Shown piece after piece: positions 18,118-55,769 of a stretch of DNA of 64,000 nucleotides. The stretch is from NCBI GenBank assembly GCA_018823175.1, contig JAHJIY010000086.1:9625-73624 (forward strand), in the 5' to 3' direction. Each line of letters begins with the position of its first letter. The first letter of the stretch is position 1. Below the pieces are notes generated by a model. That model saw only the letters and a list, made by a program, of their open reading frames with translations, was not told the DNA's origin and searched no databases. Source of the stretch: Pseudomonadota bacterium (GTDB lineage Bacteria; Desulfobacterota; Desulfobulbia; Desulfobulbales; JAHJIY01). The translations under genes were made by a program, and so were the position numbers.

Positions 18118-18719
18118 GTCTGATTCCCATGGTGGTGGAGCAAAGTCCGCGTGGTGAGCGGGCTTATGATATCTACTCAAGGTTGCTGAAAGAGAGGATT
18201 ATTTTTCTCGGGACCGGGATTAATGATGATGTCGCCAACGTGATTATTGCGCAGCTTCTTTTTCTGGAGGCTGATGATCCGGAAAAAGACATCACCTTTT
18301 ATATTAATTCGCCGGGCGGCGTGGTTACTGCAGGTTTAGCCATTTATGATACGATGCAGTACGTAAAGTGCGATATTGCTACTTTATGTATGGGGCAGGC
18401 CGCCAGTATGGGGGCGGTTCTTCTTGCCGCCGGGGCTGCCGGTAAACGATATTCACTGCCCAATGCCCGGATCTTGATTCATCAGCCGATGGGCGGATTT
18501 CAGGGGCAGGCCACCGACATTGATATTCATGCCAGGGAAATTCTGAGAATGCGTGAGGATCTGAATAAAATTCTTTCGATTCATTCCGGCCAGAAAATCA
18601 AGAAGATTCAGAATGATACTGAACGTGATTATTTTATGAGTGCCGAAGAAGCAAGGAAATATGGTATAATAGACAAGGTGCTGGTTAAGAGACAGATCCA
18701 AGAGGACGAGGAGGCTTAA
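18114..18719 (+). CDS. clpP: ATP-dependent Clp protease proteolytic subunit ClpP
   Basis: 201 aa with the Ser-His-Asp triad context ([12 protein letters not shown]). ATGA overlap with the tig stop codon. Confidence 0.95.
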
Positions 18720-18720
18720 T

Positions 18721-19980
18721 ATGCCGAAAGACCACAGTGGTGATAGAGATGTGCTTTGTTCGTTCTGTGGGAAAGGGCAGGATGAGGTCAAGAAACTGAT
18801 TGCCGGTCCCACGGTTTATATTTGTGATGAATGCATCGAACTGTGTAATGATATTGTAAAAGAGGATCGGCATAAAGAGGCGGCCCATAATGAGAGGGCC
18901 GGGCTTAAGCCCATTGAGATCAAGGCCTTGCTGGATGAGTATGTTATCGGCCAGGATCAGGCGAAGAAGACTTTGGCCGTAGCCGTTCATAATCATTATA
19001 AACGGATTGATCTCCAGAAGAATGATGACGGCAAGGACGTTGAGCTGCAAAAAAGCAACATCATTATGATTGGGCCGACCGGTAGCGGCAAGACCCTGGT
19101 TGCCCAGACCTTGGCCCGGATTCTTAATGTGCCTTTCGCCATGGCTGATGCCACCACCTTGACCGAGGCGGGATATGTCGGTGAGGATGTGGAAAATATC
19201 CTGGTCAATCTGCTGCAGGCGGCGGATCATGACGTGAAAAAGGCCTCCTGCGGGATCGTCTATATTGACGAAATTGATAAAATAGCTCGTAAATCCGACA
19301 GTGCCTCGATCACCCGCGATGTATCCGGTGAAGGTGTTCAGCAGGCCTTGCTCAAGATTATCGAGGGCACGGTGGCCAGTATTCCGCCAAAGGGTGGTCG
19401 GAAGCATCCGCAGCAGGAATATATCAAGATCGATACCACTAATATTCTGTTTATCTGTGGCGGCGCCTTTGTCGGTCTTGAAGAAGTAATCAAGAAAAGG
19501 ACCGGCACCAAATCGATGGGATTTGGCGCCAAGGTGGTGGCTAACAGTAAAAAGAAAACCGGTGAGGTTCTTGCCCAGATCAGGTCGGAAGATCTTTTAC
19601 GGTTTGGGCTGATTCCGGAGTTTGTTGGTCGTTTGCCGGTAGTTGCCACCATGGAAGAGCTGGAAGAGGAGGATTTGATCAAGATACTGCGTGAACCCAA
19701 AAACGCTCTGACCAAACAGTACGAAAGATTGTTTGCTTACGATAATATTCGGTTGCGTTTTACCGAGGGCGCGTTGTCGGCCATTGCCCATGAGGCTCTT
19801 AAAAGAAAATCAGGAGCCAGGGGCTTACGAGCGGTAATGGAAGCCGCCATGCTTGATGTCATGTATGAACTGCCCTCCGATGTCGGAGTTAAAGAGTGCG
19901 TGATCAGTGAGCAGGTTATCCTCAATGGTGATTATCCTGTAGTTCTCTACGAGAATGAGAAGAAAAAGAAATCTGCCTGA
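18721..19980 (+). CDS. clpX: ATP-dependent Clp protease ATP-binding subunit ClpX
   Basis: N-terminal zinc finger CSFCGK...CDECI, Walker A GPTGSGKT and Walker B YIDEIDK. Confidence 0.95.
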
Positions 19981-36960: not shown

Positions 36961-37324
36961 GCCTTCCCCAAAATAGATATCTTTTTGTCCTAAAATTCTA
37001 ATGGTTATTTTTTGATCGGCACCTTGGGTGACGGGAAAAATGAAGTAGATATTGACCTTAAATATTTAGTTAGTTTAGGATTGATTATTAAAATTTTGGT
37101 GGGCAAAAAAAAACTGTTTTTTTTTTGATTGTTGTAATATCATAAAAAAATGAATATCTGTTCAGCATGATGAGACCTAACAAGACTTGAATTGGAGTTT
37201 GGGCTGTAATAAGCATGAAATAAAGTTATTTACCTCTTGCTTCAAACAACCCAAAATGAGTATATTAAATGTTGTCCATTGTGGATAACATGAGCGCTTA
37301 ACAACAATAAAGGGAGAAGGGTCT

Positions 37325-39445
37325 ATGCAAAAGTTCAAGATTGGATTGCTGATTGTCCTTATGGCAATGGGGTCTGGCCTGTATGGCTGTAGCGGTGATG
37401 ACGGGACTAACGGCGTCAATGGCGTTGATGGTGTCGATGGTTCCGATGGGACGGCAACACACACAGAGGAAAGCTGTACGGTATGTCATGGCGATAATCG
37501 GCTTTTGGATACAGCTGCCCTGCATACCGCAAACGCTACGGCCCTGGCAAACGATGATCTGGTTGGCACGGTCACGGGCATTACCGACGATGGTACTGGC
37601 CTTCTGACAATCGCCTTCTCCGTGGTCGACCAAGACGGTGCAGCAGTTACTGGCATTGCTCAGGGTCGCGCCTATCTGGCCGACATCGTCCCGGCCGGCG
37701 TTGGTACCAACACTTTTGGCTCCTCCTATTTGGAGCGTTGGGCCTACGAAACTAGTACAGGCACCTGGACAGATTTAGGTGCTGGAAACTACACCTATAA
37801 GTTTACTACCGCTGCCGTCCTTGGGGCCGCCGGTTTTGATGCCACGGCCGTAGATTTCGATACGACTCACACTCAGCGTCTGGTCTTGCGTCTTGGCGCT
37901 GATGACCATAATAACGGTCTCATCGTTCAAGACTTCAACCTGACCGGTGCCGGTGCCCAGACTCTGCTTGCTCCTCAACGCGTACTCGCCCCCACCGACG
38001 GCTGCAAGAATTGTCATAGCAACCAGATGGTCGGTGCCGCTCATGCCGATAGCTACCTCGACGTTCGCGCCTGTAACGTTTGTCATAGCCCCATCGGTCA
38101 TTACGCTGCGTCTATGACCGAAGATGATGCCTACATCGGCCGCTTTATTCATGGTATCCATGCTGCGAAGTCTTCGACTGAGTTGCCTGGTTTTGCTGAA
38201 TTTGAAGAGGGTGGCGGCCATGCCCGTTTCCCTGATGCCGCTGGCGTAGACCAAGGTTATGCGGCTGTTACCTATCCCAAAGCGATCAATGACTGTGCTG
38301 CTTGCCATACCGGCAGCGAGAGCATGACTGACGGTTGGAAGAGCAACCCGACGATGGAGATTTGTACCTCATGCCATACCTCCAGCACCGTTAATATCGA
38401 CGGCACCTTTACCCACACCGCAGAGAACACTTCTGCCCCGAGCTCCACCAAAACCAACGCTCAATGTGCCGGTTGTCATGGTGCAACGGATATAGTGGGC
38501 TACCATGCGGTGACCACGCTCAAAGGTGATTCGGCAGTATCTATCACCCCGGTCTATACGGCGACCATTGCCATGACCCCCCCCGCCAACGGTACTCACT
38601 ATGTAGCAGGTGAAGCACCAGTGGTCACGGTTACTACAACTGCATCCGGTGCCTACGACAGTCTTGACAACACTACCGATTATACTGCGGCCACTCTCTA
38701 TGTTTATGGCCCAAGGGCTGAAGCGGTACCGGTCTTGACTCCTGGTTCAACTACTGATCCTGATTATATTTCCATGATTAGTGATGACACTGATCCTGAT
38801 TATGATCCGACCGCACTTCCGACTCAGGGTCATAACATGCGCGCCAGTGATGCTGCAAGCGACGCCAATGTCCTGACCGATGCCACCGGCTTTAAGTATC
38901 AACTTCAGGCAATTCCTGCTGATCTTGCGCCGGGCACCTACATGGCTCAGGTTGCAATTGGCCATACCAGTAGCAGGACCACCGGCAGCCGTAACTACAA
39001 GATTGACGGTTGGCAGATGGTAAGCTTCCAGGTAGGAACGGCTACGACAGAGCAGAGAATTGGTGGCGATAAATGCAGCAATTGCCACGATCTGACCGAC
39101 TGGACCAGCACCTATCATCGTGCTTACTTTGGTACCGACGGTTGTAATGCCTGTCATGACAAATCGGGTAACCACGCTAATCCGATCGCCAACCGGGTCC
39201 ATGCTATCCATGCCTCTAGCGAAGCTGGCGATGCGCTTGGCGCTGATTGGGCGGAAATCACCTTCCCACAAAGCGATGTTGCTGAAGGTGAGCCTGAAAG
39301 CACGCTCTGTCAGGGTTGTCATACTACGGACAATACCAGCTACCTGACTAACCCAGGCGGCTTCCCTTGTCTTGGTTGTCATGGTGATACGCCAAATGCC
39401 GTGGATCATATGATCCAAAATGGTGCTCCGCTTGCAGCACACTAA
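37325..39445 (+). CDS. Decahaem c-type cytochrome lipoprotein, MtrC/OmcA-like
   Basis: 706 aa. Lipobox LYGC (Cys22) followed by the Gly-X-Y linker GDDGTNGVNGVDGVDGSDG. Ten CXXCH motifs have their first Cys at residues 51, 227, 250, 324, 347, 381, 584, 607, 662 and 682. Two haem-free beta-rich segments (GNYTYKF, GTYMAQV) resemble the MtrC/OmcA domain plan. Strong SD AAGGGAGAAGGG. Confidence 0.85.
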   Translation: MQKFKIGLLIVLMAMGSGLYGCSGDDGTNGVNGVDGVDGSDGTATHTEESCTVCHGDNRLLDTAALHTANATALANDDLVGTVTGITDDGTGLLTIAFSVVDQDGAAVTGIAQGRAYLADIVPAGVGTNTFGSSYLERWAYETSTGTWTDLGAGNYTYKFTTAAVLGAAGFDATAVDFDTTHTQRLVLRLGADDHNNGLIVQDFNLTGAGAQTLLAPQRVLAPTDGCKNCHSNQMVGAAHADSYLDVRACNVCHSPIGHYAASMTEDDAYIGRFIHGIHAAKSSTELPGFAEFEEGGGHARFPDAAGVDQGYAAVTYPKAINDCAACHTGSESMTDGWKSNPTMEICTSCHTSSTVNIDGTFTHTAENTSAPSSTKTNAQCAGCHGATDIVGYHAVTTLKGDSAVSITPVYTATIAMTPPANGTHYVAGEAPVVTVTTTASGAYDSLDNTTDYTAATLYVYGPRAEAVPVLTPGSTTDPDYISMISDDTDPDYDPTALPTQGHNMRASDAASDANVLTDATGFKYQLQAIPADLAPGTYMAQVAIGHTSSRTTGSRNYKIDGWQMVSFQVGTATTEQRIGGDKCSNCHDLTDWTSTYHRAYFGTDGCNACHDKSGNHANPIANRVHAIHASSEAGDALGADWAEITFPQSDVAEGEPESTLCQGCHTTDNTSYLTNPGGFPCLGCHGDTPNAVDHMIQNGAPLAAH

Positions 39446-50420: not shown

Positions 50421-50436
50421 AGCATCTTTTATGCCA
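50421..50436 (-). promoter_or_regulatory. Sigma54 (-24/-12) promoter of the speD-like/GNAT/ATP-grasp/decarboxylase operon
   Basis: The minus strand reads TGGCATAAAAGATGCT. GG and GC have the exact consensus spacing (TGGCACG-N4-TTGCW). Lies about 120 nt upstream of ATG 50300. Confidence 0.65.
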
Positions 50437-50537: not shown

Positions 50538-50590
50538 AAAAAGAGAATATTATTGCTTATTTTTTCAAAAAGAGAATATTATTGCTTATT
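50538..50590. repeat. Two perfect 24-nt direct repeats (AAAAAGAGAATATTATTGCTTATT), period 29 nt; candidate enhancer (UAS)
   Basis: Copies at 50538-50561 and 50567-50590. They lie 100-155 bp upstream of the minus-strand sigma54 promoter, in the divergent intergenic region shared with the EBP gene. Confidence 0.6.
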
Positions 50591-50701: not shown

Positions 50702-52129
50702 ATGTTGAAACGCTTAGTTCTGGCTATTAAGAACAAGGATTTGGAGTCAAGTCTTGAGGCTGAATTTTCAGGGGTTGATACCCAGGTTGAATGTTATGGC
50801 AGCACGAAGAATCCATGGCTTAATGCGGTACAGAGTTGTGGCGATATTATTATCGTCAGTGAGAAATTTATTCCCGGGCCTATCGAATACGGGATCGCCA
50901 TGATTAATGATCTGCCTGAGAAGCCGACCACCGTAGTCCTGCACGGGGTTGATTCCTCTCAGGAGCACGCGAAGATCGTCGCTGCCGGTGCCGATGTAGT
51001 CCTTTATGAAAGAATAACCATTCAAAGTCTTATTGAGGCCATTTATGCCACTCTGGAATCTAGGCAACAGCTTATACAGATGGAGCAACCGGGTATTCAG
51101 GTTATTCCGCCGCCCCGGATTAACGATTTTTCTTCTGAAAATGAGGAAATGCAGCTTTTTTTAAACCAGGTCCTGCAGGTGGCGCCAACGAATTCATCGT
51201 TGCTTCTTTTAGGTGAAACCGGAGTGGGCAAAGAGCATCTGGCTAAAGCGATCCATGCCAAAAGCAAAAGGTCCGGTGGACCTTTCGTTACCGTTAATAC
51301 AGCAGCTCTGCCCGAGCATCTGCTGGAAAGTGAACTTTTTGGTCATAAACAGGGGGCCTTTACCGGAGCGGTAAGGTCTAGGCGAGGGTCATTTGAACTG
51401 GCCCATGGCGGCACCATCTTTCTTGATGAAATTGGCGAAATGCCCCTGCATCTTCAGTCGAAACTTCTTCGGGTTCTGCAGGATTTTGAGGTGAAACCAG
51501 TGGGTAGCGAGAATTCGATATGGGTTGATGTGCGGGTTGTGGCCGCGACTAATCGTGACCTGGAAGAAGAGGTGACGAAGGGGAATTTCAGAAAGGATCT
51601 TTATTATCGACTAAATGTCATGACTTTGATCATCCCGCCTTTAAGGCAGCGGCAGGAGGATATCCCCGCCCTGGCGCAGCATTTTCTCCGTAATTTCCGT
51701 TATAAAATCGGTCGGGAAGTTAATTCTATCTCAGAATCTGCAATGGAGGCGCTCTGCCAATATGACTGGCCGGGAAACGTGCGTGAATTGATGAATGTTA
51801 TCGAACGGGCCATGCTTTTAAGTAAAGGGAAATCTGTTTCCATTTATGATCTGCCCAATGTTTTTCACCTTAGCAGTATCAGTAACCTCTTAACGGATAA
51901 TATTATCAAGGAGGATATGCAGGTTACAGGTTTCTGGAAAGATAAAAGTCTGGCTGAGGTGAAAAATGAAATTATCGATCGGGTGGAGATCCTTTACTTC
52001 GATATGGTTCTCAAGCAGACAAAAGGCAGAATCAGGGAGGCCGCCGGGATCGCTAAAATTCACACCCGGGCTCTTTATAACAAGATGAGAAGATTGGGTC
52101 TGAAGAAAGAAGACTATAAGGGGAAATGA
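50702..52129 (+). CDS. Sigma54-dependent transcriptional activator (bacterial enhancer-binding protein) with degenerate receiver-like N-domain
   Basis: AAA+ core with Walker [15 protein letters not shown], Walker [10 protein letters not shown], plus a C-terminal Fis-type HTH. The N-terminal ~120 aa are receiver-like but lack the acidic pocket and phospho-Asp. Confidence 0.9.
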
Positions 52130-52459: not shown

Positions 52460-54373
52460 ATGGGTAAAACAGTTACGGAAAAAATTTTAGAGGCACATCT
52501 GGTTGAGGGGAAGATGGCTAAAGGTCAGGAGATCGGGATTCGTATCGATCAGACCCTGACCCAGGATGCCACCGGTACCATGGCATATCTGGAGTTTGAG
52601 GCGATCGGCATTCCAAGGGTGCAGACGGAACTTTCGGTCTGTTATGTTGATCATAATCTGGTCCAGTCTGATTTCAGGAACGCCGATGACCATCGTTTTT
52701 TGCAATCCATTGCCCGTAAATACGGGCTGTATTTTTCTCCTCCCGGCAATGGTATCTCTCATCAGATTCATCTTGAAAGGTTCGGTTTGCCCGGCAAAAC
52801 TCTGCTCGGTTCGGACAGCCATACCCCAACCGGGGGCGGTCTAGGGATGCTGGCCATTGGCGCCGGCGGTCTGGATGTCGCGATGGCGATGGCCGGCAAG
52901 CCTTTTTATCTTGTAATGCCAAAGGTTTACGGCATCAAGTTGATCGGTAAATTGCAGCCCTGGGTATCGGCCCGTGATATACTTCTTGAGGTGTTGCGCC
53001 GTCTTTCAGTAAAGGGCGGGGTGGGCTATATCATGGAATATTTTGGCCCAGGCGTTAAAGAACTGACCGTTACCGATCGGGCTTCGATTACCAATTTTGG
53101 GGCGGAGTTGGGCGCCACTACTTCTGTTTTCCCCTCTGATGAAAATACCAGACAATTTCTGCAAAGCCAGGGTCGGGCTGATAACTGGGTGGAATTGATT
53201 GCCGATTCGGATGCGGTTTATGATGAGGTTATCGAGATTGACATGTCCAGCCTCGAGCCGTTGATTGCCTGTCCGTCCTCGCCGGATAATGTGGTAAAGG
53301 TGAGTGAGGTGGCAGGTAAACCTGTAGCTCAGGTCCTGGTTGGTTCTTGTTCCAACTCTTCGTTAAGAGATTTGATGGTGGTGGCCAAGACCCTTGAGAC
53401 CCGTGAAATCAGCCGCGATGTAAGTTTTGAGATCAACCCCGGTAGTCGCCAGGTTCTGGAAAATATGACTGCTCAGGGCGATATGCTTACGTTGGTCAAG
53501 GCCGGCGCCCGAGTGCATCAGGCCGGTTGTCTTGGTTGTATCGGAATGGGGCAGGCCCCTTCAACCGGGACTATTTCGTTACGGACCTTTCCCCGTAATT
53601 TTCCGGGCCGAAGCGGGACCAAGGATGATCAGGTTTATCTGTGCAGTCCTGAGGTTGCGGTCGCTTCCGCCATTACCGGTAAGATTACCGATCCTCGTGA
53701 TCTTGGGTCATATCCATCCTTCAGTCTGCCGAAAAACTATCTGTTAGGTGATCAGCGCATTGAGGCCCCTCTGGCCGAGGGTGTGGCGGGAGAGATTGTT
53801 CGTGGTCCTAATATTACCCCTTTTCCAAAATTTGATGCTATTCCTGATACCTGGAGCGGTAAAATTCTATTGAAGGTTGGTGATAATATTACTACTGATC
53901 ATATTATGCCGGCCGGTGCTAAAATATTGCCGCTGCGCAGCAACATCCCGGCGATCAGTGAGTTTGTTTTTGACTCGGTTGATCATGATTTTACGGTGCG
54001 GGCCAAAGCGTCTGATGCCGGGATGGTCGTGGGCGGAGAAAATTACGGACAGGGTTCTTCCCGTGAGCATGCGGCTTTGGCTCCTCGCTTTCTGGGCGTA
54101 AGGGTTAAACTGGTCAAGAGTTTTGCCCGGATCCATAAGGCCAATCTGATTAATTTTGGGATCCTGCCGTTGACTTTTGAGAACCCGGCGGATTCTGATT
54201 CGATCGAACAGGGGGATGATGTTCTTATCCCTGGGTTGCGTAAAGCATTGGAAACCGGTCTTGAGATAATCGCTGTCCGGATTGGTGACCGTGAAATATC
54301 GGCAAAACTTGATATCTCCGCCAGGCATCGGGAGATACTCCTGGCTGGTAGTCTATTGAATTGGGCCAAATAA
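52460..54373 (+). CDS. acn: Aconitate hydratase (short bacterial AcnA_Bact-type, ~640 aa)
   Basis: 637 aa. Aconitase catalytic domain (GSDSHT, cluster Cys in GSCSNSS and CLGCIGMG) fused to a swivel domain (GENYGQGSSREHAA). Confidence 0.85.
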   Translation: MGKTVTEKILEAHLVEGKMAKGQEIGIRIDQTLTQDATGTMAYLEFEAIGIPRVQTELSVCYVDHNLVQSDFRNADDHRFLQSIARKYGLYFSPPGNGISHQIHLERFGLPGKTLLGSDSHTPTGGGLGMLAIGAGGLDVAMAMAGKPFYLVMPKVYGIKLIGKLQPWVSARDILLEVLRRLSVKGGVGYIMEYFGPGVKELTVTDRASITNFGAELGATTSVFPSDENTRQFLQSQGRADNWVELIADSDAVYDEVIEIDMSSLEPLIACPSSPDNVVKVSEVAGKPVAQVLVGSCSNSSLRDLMVVAKTLETREISRDVSFEINPGSRQVLENMTAQGDMLTLVKAGARVHQAGCLGCIGMGQAPSTGTISLRTFPRNFPGRSGTKDDQVYLCSPEVAVASAITGKITDPRDLGSYPSFSLPKNYLLGDQRIEAPLAEGVAGEIVRGPNITPFPKFDAIPDTWSGKILLKVGDNITTDHIMPAGAKILPLRSNIPAISEFVFDSVDHDFTVRAKASDAGMVVGGENYGQGSSREHAALAPRFLGVRVKLVKSFARIHKANLINFGILPLTFENPADSDSIEQGDDVLIPGLRKALETGLEIIAVRIGDREISAKLDISARHREILLAGSLLNWAK

Positions 54374-54668
54374 GTTGTCGAGTTTTTTCGTCTTATAGTG
54401 GAAAGTTCTGACTTTGAAGTAAAAATAATTGTACTAAAAGTTTGTGGCGGCTTGTTTGGTGATAAATTAACGTTTATTTTAATGGCGGGTATAAAAATTA
54501 GTACCTCTTAATATCCTGTTTTTATTGATTAATTGTTGAAAGTACTTTGGGGAGGAGGGTGGGTATAAATAATTATATCGAATGTCGCTGTGGATGGAAT
54601 GACGGTCTTTCGTTATAACTGCTTGATATTGTTTGGTTTTAGTTGAAAAATGCAATAATATTTTTTAT

Positions 54669-54684
54669 TGGCATGGCTATTGCT
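54669..54684 (+). promoter_or_regulatory. Sigma54 (-24/-12) promoter
   Basis: TGGCATGGCTATTGCT matches TGGCACG-N4-TTGCW at all key positions with correct GG-GC spacing. Predicted TSS near 54695. Confidence 0.65.
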
Positions 54685-54694
54685 CTATTACAAT

Positions 54695-54768
54695 ATCAAA
54701 TAAAGAAAACTTCCCTCCTTTCTCTAAAAAGGTCGACCTCCTCCCCCTTGGTCGGCCTTTTTTCTTTT
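54695..54768 (+). ncRNA. Candidate sigma54-dependent small RNA or attenuator leader (C-rich, terminator-ended, ~70 nt)
   Basis: Runs from the predicted TSS to the intrinsic terminator. Contains CUUCCCUCCUUUCUCU and a terminator loop UCCUCCCCCUU (anti-Shine-Dalgarno-like CCUCC motifs). No ORF. Confidence 0.3.
54729..54768 (+). terminator. Rho-independent terminator-like hairpin
   Basis: AAGGTCGACC (54729-54738) pairs with GGTCGGCCTT (54750-59, one G-U pair). 11-nt C-rich loop, then TTTTTTCTTTT. Confidence 0.65.
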
Positions 54769-54800
54769 CAAGCCCAATATATTTCTCTGATCGGCAAATT

Positions 54801-55769
54801 ATGAAGGATCTGAACAATCAGTTAAAGGTAGCGTTAGTCTCATGCAAAAATTATGAGCGGCGCTTAATGAAAGAGCAGATTGATCAAATCTGCCATGCTT
54901 TAAACTTTCGACCACCGGCCGGGAGTCGGGTTCTTCTCAAGCCTAATCTTGTTTCTGCCGGCAGTAGAGGTAATATTGCCTGTACAAATGCGGAGTTTGT
55001 GGCGGCCGTCGCCGAGTGGATGCTTGATCATGGGGCTATGGTTAAAATTGGTGATTCACCGGCTTTTGGCAGTGCCTGTAAAGTGATGGCGGCCTCTGGT
55101 ATATCTGAGGCCTTGCACGGTTTGCCGGTCACTATGGTGGATTTTAGCGATAATCGTTCAGTATCTTTGCCCTGCGGTCTTGAAACGGCGATTGCCGTTG
55201 AGGCCCTTGAATGTGATCTCCTGGTTAATCTGCCGAAGATAAAATCTCATTGTCAGTTATTGGTCAGCCTGGCGGTAAAAAATTATTTCGGAGTGGTGGT
55301 TGGTTGGCGCAAGCCATTGATTCATGCCAGATATGGAGAGGTGGATAATTTGTTTGAGGCCTTACTGGTAGATTTGCCGGAGATGGTCCCGTCAGGTATC
55401 TCTCTGCTGGACGGGGTTGTTGCCATGCAAGGAAACGGTCCCTTGAAGGGGGATCCCTTTTCTCTGGGACTGCTGGCCGGGGCAATTAACCCGGTGGCCG
55501 TTGATTCCGCTCTGCTCAAAATTCTGGGGCTGGAACCGGAACAAAGTCCTCTCTGGCGTGAATGTGCGCGCAGAAAATTACCCGGGGTCAAAAATCAATC
55601 TCTTGTATATCCCCTGTTGATGCCCGATGAACTTCGGGTCAGTGATTTTGAAGTGGTACAGCCGCTAAAGCCGGTGACTTTTCATCCCGGCAAATTGTTT
55701 GTCGGCGGGTTGAAACGGGTGGCGACTTCTTTAGCTGATAGAGTTAACTATGGTAACCACAAGAGCTGA
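54801..55769 (+). CDS. DUF362 domain-containing protein
   Basis: About 322 aa from ATG 54801 (MKDLNNQLKVALVSCKNYE...), which resembles the DUF362 family N-terminus and length. The ORF-track extension to 54633 spans a promoter and a terminator and is rejected. Confidence 0.6.
   Translation: MKDLNNQLKVALVSCKNYERRLMKEQIDQICHALNFRPPAGSRVLLKPNLVSAGSRGNIACTNAEFVAAVAEWMLDHGAMVKIGDSPAFGSACKVMAASGISEALHGLPVTMVDFSDNRSVSLPCGLETAIAVEALECDLLVNLPKIKSHCQLLVSLAVKNYFGVVVGWRKPLIHARYGEVDNLFEALLVDLPEMVPSGISLLDGVVAMQGNGPLKGDPFSLGLLAGAINPVAVDSALLKILGLEPEQSPLWRECARRKLPGVKNQSLVYPLLMPDELRVSDFEVVQPLKPVTFHPGKLFVGGLKRVATSLADRVNYGNHKS

What the first reader, a model, noticed from the sequence alone, without database searches (positions are those of the whole stretch)
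54669..54800. Sigma54 promoter driving a ~70-nt C-rich, terminator-ended transcript: candidate sigma54-dependent sRNA or attenuator upstream of DUF362
**Seen in sequence:**
- TGGCATGGCTATTGCT (54669-84) is a near-perfect -24/-12 element.
- About 35 nt downstream of the predicted TSS begins a 10-bp hairpin with a U-run (54729-68).
- The short transcript carries two anti-Shine-Dalgarno-like tracts. CUUCCCUCCUUUCUCU is unpaired, and UCCUCCCCCUU lies in the terminator loop.
- The DUF362 ATG (54801) follows 32 nt after the terminator and has no visible SD.

**Established knowledge:** Sigma54-dependent sRNAs exist, for example Qrr and GlmY.

**Inference:** This is either a trans-acting, SD-targeting sRNA or a conditional terminator gating DUF362.
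Basis: partly seen in the sequence, partly recalled or inferred. Interest (0 to 1): 0.6.

Follow-up and report, generated by a model that had tools for sequence, protein, structure and literature searches.

The report
New sigma-54-driven small RNA family
The flagged stretch is a real small-RNA gene with its own activator sites, sigma-54 promoter, pyrimidine-rich pairing region and terminator; it is conserved across the sulfur-cycling order Desulfobulbales, absent from Rfam and the searched literature, and probably silences messenger RNAs by covering their ribosome-binding sites.

Summary

- **In the window:** TGGCATGGCTATTGCT (54669-84) is the only exact sigma-54 consensus match in 64 kb. A strong terminator hairpin follows at 54726-62, then a U-run. 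Three copies of a palindrome, GTAYAAA-N3-TTRTAC, lie 106, 180 and 250 nt upstream.
- **In relatives:** the same cassette (palindromes, promoter, G-poor tract AUCUCCUUUCUCC, terminator) precedes 45 of 80 DUF362 orthologues.
- **Structure:** the terminator covaries, with compensatory changes at 11 of 11 pairs. No Rfam family matches.
- **Other contexts:** a search anchored on the RNA also found the cassette upstream of dusB, maf and fabL. In the complete genome of Thiovibrio sp. JS02 it faces convergent genes, while that genome's DUF362 locus lacks it. It is therefore an independent small-RNA gene, not a DUF362-specific leader.
- **Against an attenuator:** no antiterminator structure exists, and the RNA shows no pairing preference for the DUF362 start region.
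- **Read-through:** the terminator-to-ATG spacer is 32 nt here (median 50 in relatives, minimum 6). DUF362 is therefore probably also fed by read-through.

The most likely function is a trans-acting regulator, dependent on an enhancer-binding protein, that pairs with Shine-Dalgarno sequences. The targets, the activator and the signal are unknown. It is a new family of a known kind.

The parts
54419..54434 (.). Distal upstream activator site (UAS-3), GTAAAAATAATTGTAC, 250 nt upstream of the promoter
   Evidence: One mismatch to GTAYAAANNNTTRTAC. Sites at about -250 to -296 recur in relatives.
54489..54504 (.). Middle upstream activator site (UAS-2), GTATAAAAATTAGTAC, 180 nt upstream of the promoter
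   Evidence: A site at about -180 recurs in many loci and aligns.
54563..54578 (.). Proximal upstream activator site (UAS-1), GTATAAATAATTATAT, 106 nt upstream of the promoter
   Evidence: Where present, the proximal site lies about 91-115 nt upstream, most often at -102 to -105. At least one UAS match was found in 39 of 44 DUF362-anchored cassettes. All 34 perfect matches in 1.46 Mb of held DNA lie upstream of an sRNA promoter.
54669..54684 (+). Sigma-54 (-24/-12) promoter TGGCATGGCTATTGCT
   Evidence: The only exact consensus match in the window. Positions my search pattern did not demand also fit the consensus across 44 cassettes: T before GG in 41 of 44, C after GG in 43 of 44, W after GC in 44 of 44.
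54695..54768 (+). Predicted small RNA, about 69-74 nt. The 5' end is inferred from promoter geometry and the 3' end from the U-run.
   Evidence: The covariance model built from relatives scores 54.2 bits at 54697-54761. It is the only copy in the window. The fold has z = -5.
54710..54725 (+). Unpaired pyrimidine tract CUUCCCUCCUUUCUCU, the proposed seed. It contains CCUCCUUUCU, complementary to Shine-Dalgarno sequences.
   Evidence: It aligns with the family's best-conserved block, cTCTT-aTCTCc-TTTC-TCC. The unpaired 5' segment of the family is 8% G and 67% pyrimidine.
54726..54762 (+). Rho-independent terminator hairpin: 13-nt arms and an 11-nt C-rich loop UCCUCCCCCUU at 54739-49. The U-run extends to 54768.
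   Evidence: In the family, 94% of cells are paired and 11 of 11 pairs show compensatory changes; 0 of 500 shuffles reach the observed score.
54801..55769 (+). DUF362 gene. It is a probable read-through product of the same promoter in this lineage, and it lacks a Shine-Dalgarno sequence.
   Evidence: Pfam DUF362, 2.6e-46. The start is supported by alignment. The 32-nt spacer leaves no room for an ordinary promoter plus leader.

Best explanation
Bases 54419-54768 are a complete, independent small-RNA gene of a family not in Rfam 15 or the searched literature, conserved in Desulfobulbales.

**Shown**
- One to three copies of the palindrome GTAYAAA-N3-TTRTAC lie at fixed distances upstream of a near-consensus sigma-54 promoter.
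- A 52-87-nt transcript is predicted. Its G-poor, unpaired 5' part carries a highly conserved tract (consensus AACUCUUAUCUCCUUUCUCC; here CUUCCCUCCUUUCUCU).
- The transcript ends in a covarying Rho-independent terminator, often with a C-rich loop.
- The cassette keeps this form in at least five different gene neighbourhoods.

**Inferred**
- An unidentified enhancer-binding protein, encoded elsewhere, binds the palindromes and switches the promoter on in response to an unknown signal.
- The RNA acts in trans. Its pyrimidine tract, which resembles the 3' end of 16S rRNA, and probably the C-rich loop, pair with purine-rich Shine-Dalgarno regions of target mRNAs and block translation initiation.
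- In the window's lineage a fraction of transcripts reads through the terminator and supplies the SD-less DUF362 gene 32 nt downstream. The locus then gives two outputs from one regulated promoter.
For: **Promoter and terminator in the window**
- The promoter is the only exact consensus match in 64 kb.
- The transcript folds with z = -5.

**Conservation**
- 45 of 80 DUF362 loci collected without reference to the RNA carry the cassette on the same strand.
- The core tract has at most 2 mismatches to ATCTCCTTTCTCC in 31 of 44 cassettes.

**Structure**
- Terminator covariation: 9 of 11 pairs; 11 of 11 pairs, 94% paired, 0 of 500 shuffles as good, and slid controls far lower.

**Upstream activator palindrome**
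- It aligns across clades.
- At least one match within 300 nt upstream in 39 of 44 and 84 of 111 loci, most often about 103 nt upstream. It is absent from most non-family pattern hits.
- The window's three sites are its only matches with at most one mismatch in 64 kb.
- 34 of 34 perfect matches in 1.46 Mb are upstream of the RNA.

**Independence from DUF362**
- In the RNA-anchored scan the downstream gene is DUF362 in 44 loci, dusB in 26, maf in 5, fabL in 1 and another gene in 7.
- The dusB group is Desulfurivibrionaceae.
- In the complete Thiovibrio sp. JS02 genome the RNA (56.8 bits) lies between an MCP gene and convergent genes. Its DUF362 locus has none.

**Seed character**
- The seed is unpaired in the consensus fold.
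- It is complementary to RBS-like sequences such as GAGAAAGGAGA seen in these genomes.

**Read-through geometry**
- The spacer from U-run to ATG has a median of 50 nt and is 6 nt in L068 and L075.

**Precedent**
- A sigma-54 response regulator with an sRNA target is known in Desulfovibrio vulgaris (PMC3333781).
Against: - No transcript data exist. The 5' and 3' ends are predictions.
- No target has been identified. In-window target prediction gave only weak leads: clpX and an MtrC-like cytochrome. No extended complement to the seed exists in the window.
- The activator is unknown. No EBP gene lies within the flanks of any related locus. The window's own EBP seems to serve a different, divergent promoter.
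- The C-rich loop is not universal; it is absent in the Desulfocapsaceae-type members.
- The metagenome set was seeded with promoter plus core, so its core conservation is partly by construction.
- Very short spacers to DUF362 show some cis coupling.
Confidence: 0.6

Rival explanations
1. It is a cis-acting leader or conditional terminator. The sigma-54 promoter exists to express DUF362, and the conserved tract plus terminator form an attenuator whose read-through is modulated by a protein, a small RNA or the ribosome. The short RNA is a by-product.
For: - It is always on the same strand as DUF362 in the DUF362 loci.
- The spacer from U-run to ATG is 32 nt here, with a median of 50 nt and a minimum of 6 nt in relatives. 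This leaves little room for a separate promoter.
- DUF362 behind the cassette has a weak or absent Shine-Dalgarno (median -2.5 against -7.8 kcal/mol without the cassette; Mann-Whitney p = 1.4e-6).
Against: - The same cassette, with the same palindromes and seed, lies upstream of dusB (26 loci), maf (5) and fabL (1, where DUF362 is absent), 60-680 nt away.
- In Thiovibrio sp. JS02 it faces convergent genes, and that genome's DUF362 has no cassette.
- There is no competing antiterminator. The terminator averages -20.5 kcal/mol against -6.0 for the best upstream alternative.
- The spacer sequence is not conserved.
- The seed shows no pairing preference for the DUF362 start region (mean z = 0.03).
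Confidence: 0.15
2. It is a protein-titrating small RNA. The pyrimidine tract and C-rich loop bind and sequester an RNA-binding protein (for example ribosomal protein S1, Hfq or another pyrimidine-binding regulator) rather than pairing with mRNAs. This would work like CrcZ or RsmZ.
For: - The roughly 20-nt single-stranded tract is conserved well beyond what a generic anti-SD needs.
- Sigma-54-driven protein sponges are known, such as CrcZ (my own knowledge).
- One member, L062, has an expanded CU repeat.
Against: - There are only one or two motif copies per RNA, whereas known sponges carry several.
- No GGA or A-rich motif is present (sequence).
- The tract is an exact complement of the local RBS consensus, which gives a simpler pairing explanation.
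Confidence: 0.15
3. There is no dedicated RNA function. The promoter simply drives DUF362, and the hairpin is a leftover or bidirectional terminator of neighbouring genes. The pyrimidine tract is a DNA-level or chance feature.
For: The single-window statistics for the promoter alone are modest (12 of 100 shuffles give at least one match).
Against: - Sequence conservation of the tract is higher than that of the flanks.
- Compensatory changes are confined to the stem.
- The palindrome spacing is fixed, and the cassette recurs in unrelated neighbourhoods.
Confidence: 0.03

Closest known systems
Qrr sRNAs of Vibrio (sigma-54 plus LuxO)
   Same: A small terminator-ended RNA is transcribed from a sigma-54 promoter that depends on an enhancer-binding protein bound at upstream palindromes. 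A conserved unpaired segment pairs with mRNAs.
   Different: - No sequence or structure relationship; no Rfam family reaches threshold.
- Different phylum.
- One copy per locus or window here, whereas Vibrio carries several paralogues.
- The seed here is a pyrimidine-only anti-SD tract.
- The activator and signal are unknown.
RsaE/RoxS of Firmicutes, and other C-rich-motif sRNAs such as the alphaproteobacterial ar14 family
   Same: C-rich and CU-rich motifs sit in an unpaired region and in a hairpin loop. In those systems they pair with G-rich Shine-Dalgarno regions. The size is similar and both end in a terminator.
   Different: - The promoter type differs (sigma-54 plus EBP here).
- There is no homology. 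The only Rfam echo is ar14 at 20.5 bits against a gathering score of 58.8, E = 1.1. That reflects shared C-rich composition.
- The targets here are unknown.
Dv_sRNA2, target of the sigma-54 response regulator DVU0679 in Desulfovibrio vulgaris (PMC3333781)
   Same: It is a sulfate-reducer sRNA whose promoter is bound by a sigma-54-dependent regulator. Its function is likewise unknown.
   Different: - There the regulator gene lies directly upstream of the sRNA. Here no EBP gene is linked in relatives.
- The sequences could not be compared because Dv_sRNA2 was not available to me.
GlmY/GlmZ (sigma-54 plus GlrR) and CrcZ (sigma-54 plus CbrB)
   Same: These are sigma-54 and EBP-controlled small RNAs with upstream activator sites.
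   Different: Those act mainly by protein binding or decoy mechanisms and are longer and more structured. This RNA has one hairpin and a single-stranded pairing tract.
Premature-termination (5' UTR-derived) sRNAs that share a promoter with a downstream gene
   Same: In the DUF362 lineages, one promoter probably yields both a terminated small RNA and a read-through mRNA.
   Different: The cassette exists without any co-directional downstream gene in Thiovibrio. The coupling is therefore facultative.

Membership tests
Sigma-54 (RpoN)-dependent promoter | -24 GG and -12 GC elements with the canonical spacing (TGGCAC-N5-TTGCW) | tested here: met
   Exact match at 54669-84, unique in the window. 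The consensus is kept in 44 cassettes, including at positions my search pattern did not demand.
Sigma-54 (RpoN)-dependent promoter | Upstream activator sequences for an enhancer-binding protein, about 100-200 bp upstream | tested here: met
   Palindrome GTAYAAA-N3-TTRTAC at -106, -180 and -250 in the window. The proximal site lies about 91-115 nt upstream across clades, most often at -102 to -105. 34 of 34 perfect matches in 1.46 Mb are upstream of the RNA.
Sigma-54 (RpoN)-dependent promoter | Transcription requires RpoN and ATP hydrolysis by a cognate EBP | not testable with these tools
   This needs genetics or in vitro transcription. The cognate EBP has not been identified.
Rho-independent terminator | G+C-rich hairpin immediately followed by a U-run | tested here: met
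   13-nt arms, -18 to -19 kcal/mol, then T6CT4. The family mean is -20.5 kcal/mol.
Rho-independent terminator | The stem is maintained by compensatory substitutions in relatives | tested here: met
   11 of 11 pairs have changes on both sides, 94% of cells are paired, and 0 of 500 shuffles are as good.
Trans-acting base-pairing sRNA | Autonomous transcription unit, independent of the identity and orientation of neighbouring genes | tested here: met
   At least five contexts were found: DUF362, dusB, maf, fabL and convergent genes.
Trans-acting base-pairing sRNA | Conserved, accessible single-stranded seed | tested here: met
   The tract is the best-conserved block. It is unpaired in the consensus structure.
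Trans-acting base-pairing sRNA | Identified target mRNAs with conserved complementarity | tested here: inconclusive
   Only the window and about 1.5 Mb of flanks could be searched. That gave generic RBS matches and weak leads.
Trans-acting base-pairing sRNA | A discrete stable transcript is detected | not testable with these tools
   No transcriptome data are available.
Transcription attenuator or riboswitch leader of DUF362 | Constant association with the regulated downstream gene | tested here: not met
   44 of the 83 resolvable RNA-anchored loci precede DUF362. The rest precede other genes. 35 of 80 DUF362 loci lack the cassette.
Transcription attenuator or riboswitch leader of DUF362 | Mutually exclusive antiterminator structure of comparable stability | tested here: not met
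   The best upstream alternative averages -6.0 kcal/mol against -20.5 for the terminator. The 5' segment is only 8% G.
Any Rfam 15 family (Qrr, RsaE, ar14 and others) | Covariance-model score at or above the family's gathering threshold | tested here: not met
   The window region gave its best hit to ar14, 20.5 bits against 58.8. Twelve canonical loci gave only a tRNA. The whole window gave only tRNAs.
Desulfotalea-1 motif (Weinberg 2010; no Rfam model) | Sequence and structure of the published alignment; multi-copy, near rRNA operons | tested here: not met
   The first part of the published alignment, which is all I read, shows an unrelated sequence without the CU tract. The motif is described as located near rRNA operons.

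The most novel reading that the evidence does not exclude
The RNA mimics the 3' end of 16S rRNA. The window copy carries CCUCCUUUCU, and the family core is AUCUCCUUUCUCC. When its activator fires, the RNA is made in bulk, competes with ribosomes for Shine-Dalgarno sequences genome-wide, and shifts translation towards SD-less messages. The genes co-transcribed behind it (DUF362, dusB) have lost their SD and therefore escape. This would be a sigma-54-triggered global reprogramming of translation initiation rather than a regulator of a few targets.
Probability: 0.1. Interest if true: 0.8.

Novelty: new member of a known kind. Interest (0 to 1): 0.55.

Why it matters
**Why the taxon matters.** Desulfobulbales include sulfur disproportionators, sulfide oxidisers and the relatives of cable bacteria. 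My searches found almost nothing published on their post-transcriptional regulation.

**What this locus offers.**
- A well-defined, order-wide small RNA with a dedicated activator-site motif. It can serve directly for Northern blots, reporter fusions, DAP-seq to find the cognate regulator, and CopraRNA-type target prediction.
- A carrier with a complete genome record, Thiovibrio sp. JS02, in which to do these experiments.
- A case where one regulated promoter probably yields both a riboregulator and an SD-less mRNA.

**Annotation consequences.** It would add a family to Rfam. It would also fill a 427-nt apparently empty intergenic region in many metagenome-assembled genomes.

Tried and rejected
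**Searches that found nothing**
- A close-relative search of genome contigs with the single DUF362 protein found nothing. An alignment-based search was needed.
- Rfam has no family above threshold for the window or for canonical members. The ar14 echo is compositional.
- Literature searches found no description of this RNA or of a link between DUF362 and sigma-54. Desulfotalea-1 is unrelated.

**Structural and pairing ideas rejected**
- A 5' hairpin (AAGAG...CUCUU) exists only in one clade, not in the window or in the dusB group. It is therefore not a family feature.
- An antiterminator was rejected on energies and on the G-poor 5' segment.
- Cis or trans pairing of the seed with the DUF362 start region gave mean z = 0.03.
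- The upstream G-tract 54549-58, complementary to the loop, is at chance level (14 of 200 shuffles; family mean z = 0.33).

**Target and regulator leads**
- In-window target prediction gave only weak leads. The clpX score is inflated by stem nucleotides. No extended seed complement exists.
- The window's EBP (50702-52129) is probably not the regulator. It is not linked in relatives. It faces its own sigma-54-like promoter, which has a different upstream repeat.

**Other readings rejected**
- The link between SD-less downstream genes and the RNA is real within the DUF362 orthologues but confounded by phylogeny. The window baseline is only 31-60% of genes with a clear SD.
- A coding reading (the 378-aa TTG-extended ORF 54633-55769, or the 53-aa ORF 54643-54804) was rejected. 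Homologues start at the ATG at 54801, and N-terminal extensions are not conserved.

Full report
**1. What is in the window**

- The promoter TGGCATGGCTATTGCT (54669-84) has the sigma-54 -24 GG / -12 GC spacing. It is the only exact match to TGGCAY-N5-TTGCW in 64 kb (0.13 expected). With one mismatch allowed the count is at chance, so the window alone gives only modest support.
- From the geometry the start is about 54695.
- The unpaired tract CUUCCCUCCUUUCUCU lies at 54710-25.
- A hairpin follows with 13-nt arms (54726-38 and 54750-62), an 11-nt loop UCCUCCCCCUU, and then T6CT4 to 54768.
- The transcript folds far better than shuffles (-19.3 against -8.3 kcal/mol, z = -5).

Neighbouring genes:
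- a sigma-54 enhancer-binding protein (EBP), 50702-52129
- aconitate hydratase, 52460-54373
- the RNA
- DUF362, 54801-55769
- FabL enoyl-ACP reductase
- Maf
- an EAL/HDOD protein

The ATG at 54801 is supported by a 31-protein alignment. The deposited annotation starts 22 codons later. The window comes from a Desulfobulbales-like MAG, GCA_018812655.1, contig JAHJDI010000046.1.

**2. Conservation, anchored on DUF362 and therefore blind to the RNA**

A profile search of species-representative genomes returned 80 DUF362 loci at 42-60% protein identity.
- In 45 of them a covariance model built from the first alignment finds the same element directly upstream on the same strand. There is exactly one copy in the window (54.2 bits) and no second copy in any flank.
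- The element consists of a near-consensus sigma-54 promoter, 10-45 nt of variable sequence, the tract (A)CUCUUAUCUCCUUUCUCC, an A-rich linker, and a G+C-rich hairpin with a U-run.
- Predicted RNAs are 52-87 nt long. Their unpaired part is 8% G and 67% pyrimidine.
- Promoter positions that my search pattern did not require still match the consensus.
- The stem varies freely but stays paired: 9 of 11 pairs covary in the first alignment. In 70 distinct sequences, 11 of 11 pairs covary and 94% of cells are paired. No shuffle of 500 reaches the observed score, and slid controls are far lower.
- The window's copy is a divergent member (3 mismatches in the 13-nt core). Both of its pyrimidine tracts contain a canonical CCUCC.

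**3. A conserved activator site**

Aligning the DNA upstream of the promoters revealed a 16-bp palindrome, GTAYAAA-N3-TTRTAC.
- Its proximal copy most often begins 102-105 nt upstream of the promoter (range about 91-115). Further copies lie near -180 and -250 to -296.
- At least one match is present in 39 of 44 DUF362-anchored cassettes and 84 of 111 pattern-anchored loci. It is absent from most pattern hits that are not family members.
- In the window the three sites (54419, 54489, 54563) are the only matches with at most one mismatch in 64 kb.

This is the architecture expected of a promoter served by a dedicated EBP.

No EBP gene is linked to the cassette in relatives. The window's own EBP faces a divergent sigma-54-like promoter (TGGCATAAAAGATGCT, 50436-50421, minus strand). 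That promoter has a different upstream direct repeat and precedes an AdoMetDC-like operon. I infer that the window's EBP is not the regulator of the RNA.

**4. Small-RNA gene or DUF362 leader?**

A metagenome scan anchored on promoter plus core returned 120 loci, of which 95 are family members.

| Downstream gene | Loci |
|---|---|
| DUF362 | 44 |
| dusB | 26 |
| maf | 5 |
| fabL (aconitase-RNA-fabL, DUF362 absent) | 1 |
| other genes | 7 |
| contig ends too soon | 12 |

- The dusB group belongs to Desulfurivibrionaceae. That is the clade whose DUF362 loci lack the cassette and instead face a divergent fliL promoter.
- In the complete genome of Thiovibrio sp. JS02, the DUF362 locus has no cassette. 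The RNA (56.8 bits, with promoter and palindromes) sits between an MCP gene and two genes on the opposite strand. There it has no co-directional gene to control.
- No antiterminator can form. The terminator averages -20.5 kcal/mol and the best upstream alternative -6.0.
- The spacer to DUF362 is not conserved.
- The seed shows no pairing preference for the DUF362 start region (mean z = 0.03).

These results favour an autonomous small-RNA gene.

The distance from U-run to the DUF362 ATG is nevertheless short. It is 32 nt here, with a median of 50 nt and a minimum of 6 nt in two loci. In these lineages DUF362 is therefore most simply transcribed by read-through from the same promoter.

**5. Likely mechanism**

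The conserved tract is single-stranded. It is the exact complement of RBS-like sequences seen in these genomes, such as GAGAAAGGAGA. From my own knowledge, it resembles the 3' end of 16S rRNA. Many members also carry a C-rich terminator loop.

I infer a trans-acting, translation-blocking RNA that pairs with Shine-Dalgarno regions and is switched on by an unidentified EBP. This is inference.
- No targets were found, because only about 1.5 Mb could be searched.
- The best in-window leads, clpX and an MtrC-like cytochrome, are weak.

A protein-sponge role is a reasonable rival, but the RNA has only one or two motif copies.

**6. Comparison with known systems**

- No Rfam 15 family matches. The ar14 echo (20.5 bits against a gathering score of 58.8) reflects shared C-rich motifs.
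- Desulfotalea-1 is unrelated.
- The literature held here has no description of this RNA. The nearest precedent is the sigma-54 regulator DVU0679 and its sRNA target in Desulfovibrio vulgaris.
- Functionally it combines the promoter logic of Qrr, GlmY and CrcZ with the C-rich anti-SD seed logic of RsaE/RoxS.

**7. An unexplained side observation**

- DUF362 behind the cassette has a weak or absent SD (median -2.5 kcal/mol). DUF362 without it has a strong one (-7.8; p = 1.4e-6, not corrected for phylogeny).
- dusB behind the cassette is also SD-poor (median -2.4).
- The baseline is low: only 31-60% of window genes have a clear SD. The evidence is therefore weak.
- It leaves open the more novel reading that the RNA competes globally for SD sequences while its co-transcribed genes escape.

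**8. Verdict**

This is a genuine, conserved sigma-54/EBP-dependent small-RNA gene and a new family of a known kind.
- Confidence that it is a real conserved RNA gene: about 0.85.
- Confidence in the full proposed mechanism: about 0.6.
- Interest: 0.55.

Noticed in passing
window 50421-50436 (-) and 50540-50588; EBP gene 50702-52129 (+): A sigma-54-like promoter (TGGCATAAAAGATGCT, one mismatch) precedes the AdoMetDC-like, GNAT and ATP-grasp-like operon on the minus strand. A tandem direct repeat, AATAAGCAATAATATTCTCTTTTT x2, lies about 110-150 nt upstream of it, and the window's EBP gene is divergent from it. This is probably that EBP's own regulon, distinct from the RNA's palindrome.
   Followed up: partly
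window 54801 vs 54867: The deposited DUF362 protein (300 aa) starts 22 codons downstream of the ATG supported by the alignment of 31 homologues. The public annotation therefore overstates the intergenic gap and leaves the RNA region blank.
   Followed up: yes
L001, L005, L010, L012, L015, L201 (about 150-450 nt upstream of DUF362): In Desulfurivibrionaceae and Thiovibrio, DUF362 faces a divergent sigma-54 promoter (CGGCACAATGCTTGCTT) that drives fliL and the fliMNOPQ genes. A highly conserved block of about 45 nt (TATATGTAAATTATCGGTAATTCAATGTATTTCTGG) and a GTCA-N-TGAC-like palindrome lie between them. DUF362 there has a strong GGAGGGGG Shine-Dalgarno.
   Followed up: partly
L095, L150, L152, L180, L200: These are non-family hits of the pattern scan. 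A sigma-54 promoter is followed by a CU-rich leader (GCGCATCTCTTCTCTCCTCCC) and then a complementary GGGAGCTGAGGAGG just before an ATG. This looks like a cis anti-SD hairpin masking the ribosome-binding site of a sigma-54-dependent gene.
   Followed up: no
DUF362 and dusB start regions in L001-L200: Genes lying co-directionally behind the RNA (DUF362, dusB) have weak or no Shine-Dalgarno. DUF362 orthologues without the RNA have strong ones. The contrast is confounded by phylogeny and by a low SD baseline.
   Followed up: partly
window 54549-54558: GGGGAGGAGG, just upstream of the proximal palindrome, is a perfect complement of the terminator-loop region CCUCCUCCCC (54737-46). The match is reached in 14 of 200 shuffles, and the family shows no such trend, so it is probably chance.
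   Followed up: yes
L030:2752 and L031:1566 (about 30 nt upstream of the promoter): A 9-12-nt perfect complement of the RNA's own seed (AGGAGATAAGAA) lies just upstream of the sigma-54 promoter in two related loci. In L030 it is reached in 1 of 200 shuffles. Its meaning is unknown.
   Followed up: no
window 18681-18741 (clpX start) and 37285-37345 (MtrC-like decaheme cytochrome start): These are the best in-window complementarity to the RNA's pyrimidine tracts (-16 and -13 kcal/mol for the seed). The clpX score partly uses stem nucleotides. Treat them only as leads.
   Followed up: partly
L063 between the RNA and DUF362: The spacer holds a run of N flanked by tandem CATTAGCC repeats. This is an assembly gap inside a short tandem repeat.
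   Followed up: no
Supplementary alignment of Desulfotalea-1 (PMC2864571, file 93): The conserved core of that published motif begins UGGCAUCGCUUGC, which itself looks like a sigma-54 -24/-12 element. The 'RNA motif' may include a promoter.
   Followed up: no
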